Below are positions 23,230 through 39,076 of a stretch of 64,000 nt of DNA, one piece after another (position 1 is the stretch's first letter; each line of letters begins with the position of its first letter). The notes under the pieces are model-generated. The model saw only the letters and a program-made list of their open reading frames with translations. It was not told the origin of the DNA and made no database searches. A program made the position numbers and the translations under genes. This DNA comes from Octopus vulgaris (taxonomy: Eukaryota): assembly GCA_951406725.2 (NCBI GenBank), contig OX597831.1, forward strand, positions 5,022,001-5,086,000, read 5' to 3'.

Positions 23230-24127
23230 TCTATAAGCATAAGGCCTGAAATTTTGAAGAAAGTTCTAGTTGATTACATCGAATCCAGTGCTCAACGAGT
23301 TCTTTATTTTATCGACCCCCATCGAAGGATAAACAGCAAAATAGACCTGCGATGGAATTTGAACTCAGAGCGTAAAGCCGGAACTAAAAGCGCGAAGCAT
23401 TTTGTTCTGTGTAGTAATGTTTCTTATTTCTTTATTGCCCACAAGGGGCTAAACATAGAGGGGGACAAACAAGGACAGACAAACGGATTAAGTCGATTAT
23501 ATCAACCCCAGTGCGTAACTGGTACTTAATTTATCGACCCCGAAAGGATGAAAGGCAAAGTCGACCTTGGCGGAATTTGAACTCAGAACATAAAGACAGA
23601 TGAAATACTGCTAATCATCTCACCCAGCGTGCTAACGTTTCTTATTTCTTTATTGCCCACAGGGGGCTAAACATAGAAGGGACAAACAAGGATAGACAAA
23701 CGGATTAAGTCGATTATATCGACACCAGTGCGTAACTGGTACTTATTTAATCGCCCCCAGTGCGTAACTGGTACTTAATTTATCGACCCCGAAAGGATGA
23801 AAGGCAAAGTCGACCTTGGCGGAATTTGAACTCAGAACGTAAAGACAGATGAAATACTGCTAATCATCTCACCCGGCGTGCTAATGTTTCTTATTTCTTT
23901 ATTGCCCACAGGGGGCTAAACATAGAGGGGACAAACACGGACAGACAAACGGATTAAGTCGATTATATCGACCCCAGTGCGTAACTGGTACTTATTTAAT
24001 CGTCCCCATTGCGTAACTGGTACCTATTTAATCGACCCAGAAAGGATGAAAGGCAAAGTCGACCTTGGCGGAATTTGAACTCAGAACATAAAGACAGATG
24101 AAATATTGCTAAGCATCTCACCCGTCG
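23230..24127 (-). mobile_element. SINE family B head-to-tail concatemer (three young units plus one older unit)
   Basis: Units start near 23420, 23638 and 23887 with no spacer DNA. Confidence 0.9.
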
Positions 24128-24273
24128 TAGAGAAATACACATTGGCTAATGTGCCCTGAACTTCTGTAGATAACAAAAAGTGTTACGGCTGAAAACCATT
24201 TGATTACATGCCTACTGAATTAGTGCAAGCATGGGCCTAAAATACTATTACTAAAATACTACTACTTAAATAT

Positions 24274-29624: not shown

Positions 29625-29680
<56 letters not shown>

Positions 29681-29712
29681 TTTATTTTAAGCAGCAGAAA
29701 ATTCAACAAAAT

Positions 29713-29750
29713 CTGTTACTCTGAGTTTCTCGTTGCCGTTCATCAGACAA
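29713..29750 (-). ncRNA. Type I hammerhead ribozyme motif
   Basis: Minus strand reads UUGU-CUGAUGA-A-CG(GCAA)CG-A-GAA-ACUC(A)GAGU-A-ACAG. Confidence 0.65.
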
Positions 29751-29810
29751 AACTGTCTGATGAACGGCAACGAAAACTCAGAGTAACAGATTTTGTTGAA
29801 TTTTCTGCTG

Positions 29811-29848
29811 CTGTCTGATGAACGGCAACGAGAAACTCAGAGTAACAG
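29811..29848 (+). ncRNA. Type I hammerhead ribozyme motif
   Basis: CUGU-CUGAUGA-A-CG(GCAA)CG-A-GAA-ACUC(A)GAGU-A-ACAG, with stem I CUGU/ACAG and a GUA cleavage triplet. Confidence 0.7.
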
Positions 29849-29950
29849 ATTTTGTTGAATTTTCTGCTGCTTAAAATAAAGCATATTACTCTACCACTGG
29901 TATTTGAGTACTCTTTTTTCCACCTTGTTTCACATTTATGTGTTTACTCC

Positions 29951-30010
<60 letters not shown>

Positions 30011-30297
30011 TACATATATACAGATATATATACATACTTATGTATATTAAGGGTTCATTCATCCAGTTTGTACGCTTATTTAATTTGTTGACAAGTGTTA
30101 TGACTAGATGTCAATGGGTCTATCATTAGATAATCGATATCATAGTATCATTACTCTTTTCCGTGTTTTCAAACGTATGATTTGTCACCTGTACGTTTGT
30201 TGATACAGCTATTAACTGTCGAATAAAAGTGATATCAATGACTCCGGTATATATATATATATATATGTTTGTATGTATGTATGTATGTATTAATATG

Positions 30298-37703: not shown

Positions 37704-38019
37704 TTGTTTTTGTTGTTGTTGTGGTTGTTCTTCTTCTTCGGGGATCGATGAGTTTCGTTCCAATGAAACCCTGGGGTCGATGTAATAGACTAGTCCCGTC
37801 TCCCCAAAATTTCAGACCTATTATTATTAAAGCAGAAACTGTTATTTAGTTTCACGTGACCGTTCGTCAGACATTTGTGATAAAACAGTACCTATGTGTG
37901 TGTGCTTGTGTGTGTGTGTTTTATGCCTATATACATTCTGAGCTCACATATGCATAAAGGATGTAAGATAAATCAAATTTAAAAATACAAATAAAATAAT
38001 ATATATGTATGTGTGTGTA

Positions 38020-38834: not shown

Positions 38835-39035
38835 TAGGTCCCGGGTTGATTCGGGGTTAACCACAGTAAGTAAGGTACTCAATACATAGCAGAGTAAAAT
38901 TAATTTATTATATAGAAGGAGCTTCTACAGGACTAGTACTGTTTCATTCAAGAGAAATCTTCAGGAAGCTTCAGGAGCTTCCTGAAGATTTCTCTTGAAT
39001 GAAACAGTACTAATCCTGTAAACTCCTTCTATATA

Positions 39036-39041
<6 letters not shown>
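38835..39041 (-). mobile_element. Penelope-like terminal repeat with inverted duplication
   Basis: 38903-38970 is an imperfect reverse complement of 38976-39041. Both arms carry a hammerhead, and (TA)n flanks both sides. Confidence 0.7.
38920..38970 (-). ncRNA. Type I hammerhead ribozyme, the best-formed copy in the window
   Basis: Minus strand reads AGCUUC-CUGAAGA-UUUC(UCUU)GAAU-GAA-ACAG(UACUAGUC)CUGU-A-GAAGCU: 6-bp stem I, 4-bp stem III, GUA triplet. Confidence 0.75.

Positions 39042-39076
<35 letters not shown>

What the first reader, a model, noticed from the sequence alone, without database searches (positions are those of the whole stretch)
29680..29952. Triple hammerhead cassette: one inverted and two tandem 58-bp units able to form a dimeric ribozyme
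Seen: the unit CUGU-CUGAUGA-A-CG(GCAA)CG-A-GAA-ACUC(A)GAGU-A-ACAG occurs at 29811 (+), at 29753 (+, missing one G) and at 29713-29750 (-). Stem III is a near-palindrome with a 1-nt loop, and stem II is 2 bp capped by a GNRA tetraloop. The whole cassette is also a long hairpin with 70-bp arms. The downstream sequence (aataaa..ttactct..tttgagtac) resembles that of the 38.9-kb element although the ribozymes differ. Established: minimal hammerheads with a palindromic helix III cleave as dimers formed from tandem copies. Inference: the tandem supplies the partner, and the antisense arm could sequester it.
Basis: partly seen in the sequence, partly recalled or inferred. Interest (0 to 1): 0.85.

Follow-up and report, generated by a model that had tools for sequence, protein, structure and literature searches.

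The report
Stump of a Hydra-clade Penelope retrotransposon
The three hammerhead-like motifs are the cut-down, mirror-image ends of one young Penelope-like jumping gene that has thousands of copies in this genome, and the extra tandem copy is likely a one-off copying slip rather than a ribozyme switch, so the cassette itself is ordinary.

Summary
29680-29952 is one 5'-truncated insertion, in a (TA)n tract, of a 3,365-bp Penelope-like element (PLE). The 34-nt hammerhead core has 4,270 genomic copies. Full-length parents encode a 727-codon telomerase-like RT plus endonuclease with the Hydra-clade motifs.

The inverted arm plus a 71-nt tail is the family norm: 49 of 61 short insertions have an adjoining inverted arm. 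The close tandem is not: 4 cases genome-wide, each with a different junction. Here the added copy has a damaged core, and the dimer fold lies 70 kcal/mol above the hairpin. The ribozyme design is already published for Hydra PLEs (PMC8557442, File S2). Stem II's base is A·A in this subfamily and A-U in an older one.

Side result: short arms stop about 65-86 nt upstream of the element's end. ORF-bearing copies never do (0 of 54), and there is a small peak at the cut site. This fits, but does not prove, circular or read-through templates. The scan noted similar pile-ups on other DNA. Cleavage is untested.

The parts
29645..29679 (.). (TA)n target tract, left part
   Evidence: the family inserts in (TA)n: 84 of 94 tail ends are followed by a TA repeat
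29680..29749 (-). Inverted 70-nt arm: 3' end of the PLE pseudo-LTR, ending at end site 1 (no tail). Holds one hammerhead motif; predicted cut 29717/29716
   Evidence: 100% identical to the last 70 nt of the full-length unit in L031; core position
29749..29812 (+). Copy A: partial duplicate (75 to 11 nt upstream of site 1) with a 1-nt deletion at the stem II/G12 boundary; joined to copy B through a 2-nt CT microhomology
   Evidence: 98.5% over 65 nt; this junction is unique in the genome
29811..29881 (+). Copy B: last 71 nt of the pseudo-LTR with the intact hammerhead motif. Stem I 29811-14/29845-48, core 29815-21, stem II 29822-31, GAAA 29832-35, stem III to 29843, predicted cut 29844/29845
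   Evidence: 100% identical to the full-length unit; stems called
29882..29952 (+). 71-nt PLE 'tail' between end site 1 and end site 2. In full-length copies it runs on into the ORF leader; holds a small TACTC/GAGTA hairpin
   Evidence: 89 of 94 tail-anchored ends stop at site 2; the hairpin is weak on its own, z -1.8
29953..30047 (.). (TA)n target tract, right part

Best explanation
The cassette is a short, protein-less insertion of the hammerhead-bearing end of a young Hydra-clade Penelope-like retroelement, likely made when the element's enzyme primed two cDNAs in a (TA)n tract and joined them head to head, with the third copy likely a one-off template slip. SHOWN: sequence identity to the 3,365-bp parent; the parent's RT and endonuclease ORF; two fixed end sites 71 nt apart; the head-to-head arm pair as the family norm; the rarity of the tandem. 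INFERRED from the Anolis PLE biochemistry (PMC11167929): the protein nicks both strands of AT-rich DNA and starts reverse transcription at two adjacent RNA sites. One cDNA would start at site 2 (tail-bearing arm) and one at site 1 (inverted arm). Both stop about 65-86 nt upstream of site 1 and are joined through microhomology. Here the site-2 cDNA would have jumped back about 59 nt once. INFERRED: the hammerhead matters, if at all, in the parent's RNA, where its dimer partner would be the copy one unit (3.4 kb) away. In this stump any read-through RNA is predicted to form a 70-bp hairpin that buries the ribozyme.
For: Parent: L031 has same-strand cores 3,365 nt apart around a 727-codon ORF; 45 of 150 scored matches lie in an open frame of exactly 727 codons (counted by eye). 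The AlphaFold model (pLDDT 92) has telomerase TERT as top Foldseek hit (3du5, E 1.4e-9). The Hydra motifs RWK, DKT, CxCx5C, CxxC and CxH are present, with no Cys between the GIY- and YIG-like motifs (against PMC8557442 section 11). Architecture: 89 of 94 tail ends at site 2; 49 of 61 short copies have an adjoining inverted arm, 48 of those 49 end at site 1; arm lengths are correlated (Spearman 0.78). There are 692 genomic junctions of the class just upstream of the core. Tandem: 4 genome-wide, all with different junctions. Folding: the dimer lies 70 kcal/mol and the monomer 20 kcal/mol above the cassette ensemble.
Against: Twin priming is borrowed from another PLE clade. Fold-back self-priming, which PMC3846280 favours for head-to-head junctions, also gives correlated arms and was not excluded. 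The endonuclease was identified from motifs only: Pfam gave no hit and the fold searches covered residues 64-496. Clade membership rests on motifs, with no tree. Whether this locus is transcribed is unknown.
Confidence: 0.9

Rival explanations
1. One reading: a functional dimeric ribozyme cassette in which the 58-nt tandem supplies the partner and the inverted arm acts as an antisense switch.
For: Stem III is self-complementary (-7.4 kcal/mol duplex). Dimer and trimer constructs of a PLE minimal hammerhead cleaved weakly in vitro (PMC4209133). On the + strand the tandem is transcribed right after the inverted arm, so the hairpin competes.
Against: 4 tandems among 4,270 cores, none sharing a junction. 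Copy A's core is damaged. The dimer fold is 17 kcal/mol uphill in the tandem alone and 70 in the cassette. The antisense arm is made before the sense copies in a + transcript, so the ribozyme has no window in which to fold first (inference).
Confidence: 0.04
2. The short palindromes are a self-propagating non-autonomous element (MITE- or retrozyme-like) copied as a unit, and the window holds a variant of it.
For: One junction, centred on CTAG, recurs many times: 23 of 98 arm ends are at 81 nt (listing).
Against: Junctions vary from 15 to 130 nt arm length, with templated inserts, while the arm sequences stay near-identical to intact parents. The tail can lie on either arm. Each arm ends at the parent's own two end sites. 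CTAG is a palindromic microhomology that would be reused independently.
Confidence: 0.06

Closest known systems
Hydra clade of C-terminal EN+ Penelope-like elements (Craig et al. 2021, PMC8557442; e.g. Hydra-2_Amil, Penelope-3_HM, Penelope-13_HM, Hydra-1_Obim)
   Same: Diagnostic protein motifs; (TA)n targeting; hammerhead near the 3' end. File S2 lists Hydra-2_aMil with the same stem I, same stem III arms and same cleavage base, and Penelope-3_HM with the same stem III including the 1-nt A loop. Many HM families have a U·U pair at the base of stem II. Penelope-13_HM carries an inverted 5'-truncated copy.
   Different: The unit is longer (3,365 nt against under 3 kb for most) with a ~1-kb 3' region. 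Stem II is only 2 bp with A·A at its base. The listed octopus family Hydra-1_Obim has a different ribozyme and protein. Two family-specific DNA strings and one protein string were absent from the supplement, so this family is not listed there.
PLE insertion architecture: pseudo-LTR, inverted 5'-truncated copy and one-sided tail (PMC3846280; PMC8557442 Fig. 2; two RT start sites in PAc, PMC11167929)
   Same: Head-to-head inverted arms, junction microhomology or palindrome, a tail on one end only, AT-rich target.
   Different: The tail is 71 nt here against 30-40 nt described. Most insertions are stumps under 170 nt (61 of 94 sampled).
Metazoan minimal/dimeric PLE hammerheads (Cervera and de la Pena 2014, PMC4209133) and animal non-LTR retrozymes (PMC7229834, search listing only)
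   Same: Type I core, short palindromic helix III, pairs on opposite strands close together.
   Different: The G10.1-C11.1 pair that this paper calls highly conserved is absent. The unit is not a tandem-array retrozyme: close tandems are 4 in the genome.

Membership tests
Penelope-like element (EN+) | Single ORF with telomerase-like RT | tested here: met
   727-codon ORF, YRDD at 360; TERT is the top Foldseek hit
Penelope-like element (EN+) | C-terminal GIY-YIG endonuclease | tested here: inconclusive
   GVVY...YTG motifs with downstream R, H, E, N seen; no Pfam hit; domain not folded alone
Penelope-like element (EN+) | Pseudo-LTR partial tandems, inverted 5'-truncated copy, one-sided tail | tested here: met
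Hydra clade | RWK and DKT motifs | tested here: met
   RWK at 53, DKT at 129; definition
Hydra clade | CxCx5C linker; no cysteines between GIY and YIG; CxxC and CxH around conserved E and N | tested here: met
   CNCKNESSC at 578, 0 Cys, CRLC at 683, CRH at 711; the three Cys motifs are in 119 of 119 aligned homologues
Hydra clade | Insertion into (TA)n and hammerhead near the 3' end | tested here: met
   84 of 94 tail ends followed by TA; core 67-38 nt before site 1
Hydra clade | Phylogenetic placement with reference Hydra RTs | not tested
Type I hammerhead ribozyme | Conserved core CUGANGA, GAAA, UH with stems I-III | tested here: met
   copy B and the inverted copy; copy A has a 1-nt deletion in this region; core invariant in 22 aligned copies of two subfamilies (that sample was selected by a pattern containing the core)
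Type I hammerhead ribozyme | Paired base of stem II (10.1-11.1) | tested here: not met
   A·A in 102 of 102 young copies; A-U in an older subfamily, 503 hits; U·U occurs in published Hydra ribozymes
Type I hammerhead ribozyme | Covariation of stems | tested here: inconclusive
   80% of cells paired against 33-47% for slid controls, but covariation not above shuffles, 464 of 500 as high
Type I hammerhead ribozyme | Self-cleavage | not testable with these tools
   only an indirect hint from arm ends
Animal non-LTR retrozyme | Tandem arrays of short hammerhead-bearing units (definition recalled; paper seen as listing only) | tested here: not met
   4 close tandems among 4,270 cores (spacers of 10-40 nt tested); the regular same-strand spacing seen in the listing is about 3.35 kb

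The most novel reading that the evidence does not exclude
The family's insertion ends record three RNA templates. (1) Linear RNAs beginning about 84 nt upstream of site 1 give the hundreds of short palindromes. (2) A few RNAs cut by the hammerhead give the small peak at 37-38 nt. (3) Hammerhead-cut, re-ligated 3,365-nt circles, which have no 5' end, give the ORF-bearing partial tandems; this would explain why 0 of 54 such copies stop at 65-86 nt. That would be genomic evidence for the circular-RNA step proposed for PLEs in 2014, in a family with dozens of intact copies to test it on.
Probability: 0.2. Interest if true: 0.65.

Novelty: new member of a known kind. Interest (0 to 1): 0.27.

Why it matters
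The cassette itself matters little: it is one of thousands of stumps. The parent family is more useful. It is a young Hydra-clade PLE with at least 45 matches in 727-codon open frames, and none of the papers I saw describes this clade's biochemistry. The role of the hammerhead in PLEs is still open (PMC8557442; in PAc it was dispensable in vitro, PMC11167929). The contrast between short cassettes and ORF-bearing copies, plus a subfamily switch from A-U to A·A in stem II, gives a ready system for asking whether the ribozyme cuts and whether circles are templates.

Tried and rejected
Rfam scan: no hit. Pfam on the ORFs: 0 families. Homologues gave nothing useful. PDB sequence searches: none significant. 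Single-sequence AlphaFold: pLDDT 33, discarded.

RNA: no listed holder is on record as RNA. Four runs guessed to be RNA, held as contigs, cover the unit and show no splice-like joint in the leader. Contigs cannot show ends or levels, so this is neither for nor against expression or cleavage.

Simple 'one transcription start at 84 nt for all element RNAs': rejected as stated, because 0 of 54 ORF-bearing copies that reach that region stop at 65-86 nt.

Apparent compensatory change ACA/TGT in stem II of old copies: rejected as CpG decay on both arms. My by-eye impression that an extended helix I covaries was not confirmed.

The monomer energies used a forbidden 1-nt loop and were redone with a 3-nt loop. 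Arm lengths above about 200 nt are under-called at homopolymer indels and are used only as 'long'.

Literature: 7 searches found no paper on this family's ribozyme or on a pile-up of PLE ends upstream of the hammerhead. Subscription papers, Repbase and Dfam were not searchable.

Full report
Observation. The 70-bp arms pair perfectly and the cassette folds far better than shuffles. The stretch 29680-29952 is bounded on both sides by (TA)n. The host is a 2.8-Gb, microsatellite-rich animal genome. It looks like an octopus-type genome to me, but that is an inference and was not tested.

Family. A 34-nt core pattern has 4,270 matches in the genome and the reversed control has none. In the listing, matches often come as (-)(+) pairs, and some same-strand pairs lie about 3.35 kb apart. 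Twenty such stretches were fetched. In L031 two same-strand cores 3,365 nt apart enclose a 727-codon ORF. The window's copy B and inverted arm are 100% identical to the end of that unit. Of 150 scored matches to the protein's N-terminus, 45 lie in an open frame of exactly 727 codons (counted by eye), so the family is young.

Protein. Pfam and PDB sequence searches were blank. A homologue search gave 1,761 hits. With 119 sequences aligned the model reached pLDDT 92. Foldseek ranked telomerase TERT first, and the wide search listed RT folds at Z up to 12.7 over residues 64-496. The endonuclease part was not tested by fold. The motifs that Craig et al. use to define the Hydra clade are present: RWK, DKT, CxCx5C linker, no cysteines between the GIY- and YIG-like motifs, CxxC and CxH. 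From that paper (PMC8557442) I read passages, section 11 and supplement parts. No tree was built.

Insertion anatomy. Positions are given as arm length upstream of end site 1 (...AAAATAAAG); site 2 lies 71 nt downstream. To avoid requiring an intact ribozyme I anchored on the site-1/tail junction (1,624 matches) and examined the first 100 listed. Six rows were dropped: one duplicate and five internal unit junctions. Of the 94 kept, 89 end at site 2 and 84 are followed by a TA repeat. 61 are shorter than 170 nt; 49 of these have an adjoining inverted arm, and 48 of the 49 end at site 1. The window cassette fits this pattern: a 70-nt inverted arm ending at site 1 and a 75-nt direct arm ending at site 2. 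This is the known PLE structure (PMC8557442 Fig. 2 legend; PMC3846280, passages). The Anolis PLE protein cleaves and extends both strands and starts at two adjacent RNA sites that bound the tail (PMC11167929, parts 1-2 of 4), which is the basis for the twin-priming inference.

The tandem. A same-strand second core within 10-40 nt occurs 4 times in the genome, the window included. All four are inverted-plus-tandem triples, each with a different junction. Here the join uses a 2-nt CT microhomology, and copy A has lost a G where stem II meets G12. The dimeric fold lies 17 kcal/mol above the ensemble of the tandem alone and 70 above that of the whole cassette. The monomer lies 13.5 and 20 above, against 5.5 in the parent's leader. 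These are nearest-neighbour estimates without tertiary contacts. The tandem is therefore best read as an accident.

The ribozyme. A·A is the consensus of the young subfamily (102 of 102; 18 genomic copies with U). An older subfamily has ACG-GGAA-CGU with a paired base (503 matches). The differences between subfamilies fall at N7, loop II, loop III and 11.1. Pairing is kept (80% against 33-47% for slid controls) but covariation does not exceed shuffles. Craig et al.'s File S2 lists Hydra ribozymes from coral and Hydra with the same stem I or stem III and often a U·U base of stem II, so the design is known and conserved across phyla. PLE minimal hammerheads cleaved weakly and only as dimers or trimers (PMC4209133, parts 1-2 of 4). 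The PAc ribozyme needed the protein and was dispensable for insertion in vitro. Activity here is untested and may be reduced by the A·A.

Where the arms stop. Among the 49 paired cassettes, 49 of 98 arm ends lie at 77-86 nt, 2 at 35-39 (cut site = 37) and 4 beyond 86. The two arm lengths are correlated (rho 0.78; 0.51 in the 25 pairs with an arm under 76 nt). Genome-wide there are 692 junctions with both arms of about 73 nt or more, against 53 with both arms from 33 nt up to roughly 50 (spacer up to 30 nt in both). Of the 53, 49 loci were fetched and 41 kept as family on both sides. The longer arm ends at 37 in 6 and at 38 in 10, against 1.25 per position at 39-46. Nine of the ten at 38 share a snap-back motif that could create the peak without any cut. 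The 6 at 37 give Poisson P 0.002, not adjusted for the choice of position. This is a weak hint that a few templates were cleaved.

Against a simple transcription-start explanation, 70 of the best ORF matches were traced upstream: 16 stop before or within 6 nt of site 1, 1 at 38, none at 40-86, and 53 go further (some are partner copies at one locus). The upper edge, 84 nt, coincides with an initiator-like CCATTCT (motif recalled) and with the outer end of an extended helix I in the predicted fold. Short linear templates, a stall of the initiating RT, or circles or read-through RNAs for the long copies all remain possible. RNA data could not decide.

Verdict. Real, and explained as an ordinary stump of a new family in a known PLE clade. 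An O. vulgaris repeat paper (PMC13282606, passages) reports recently active Penelope families without mentioning hammerheads or Hydra. Its library and supplements were not read and may hold this family. Earlier scan notes from other genomes describe the same architecture and pile-ups; they are leads, not support. Interest 0.27.

Noticed in passing
window 38836-39045: A second head-to-head hammerhead stump with a one-sided tail in (TA)n. Its family has 1,967 exact core matches, and 3 of 30 loci carry fragments 34-44% identical to P0001, so it is likely a sister PLE family.
   Followed up: partly
window 37870 (-), 27487 (-), 26553 (+), 37022 (-), 57159 (-), 54135 (+): Further hammerhead-core-like motifs. 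The one at 37870 resembles the older A-U subfamily; the others may be relics of other PLE families.
   Followed up: no
window 29887-29911 and about 38874-38896 (-): Both tails hold a TACTC/GAGTA-closed hairpin, and by eye a similar one follows the ribozyme in the published coral element. Candidate protein-binding element; weak on its own (z -1.8).
   Followed up: partly
L147, L163, L168, L289, L297, L299: Six of 70 ORF-bearing copies have their 5' end within 6 nt of site 1, a second small cluster of stops that I did not explain.
   Followed up: no
L031:694-8293: A 7.6-kb insertion made of two nearly full units head to head, showing the same two-site, two-arm rule at full length.
   Followed up: yes
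window 23506-24128 and 21-387: Tandem arrays with periods of 249 bp (2.5 copies, 95%; SINE-like by eye) and 96 bp (3.8 copies).
   Followed up: no
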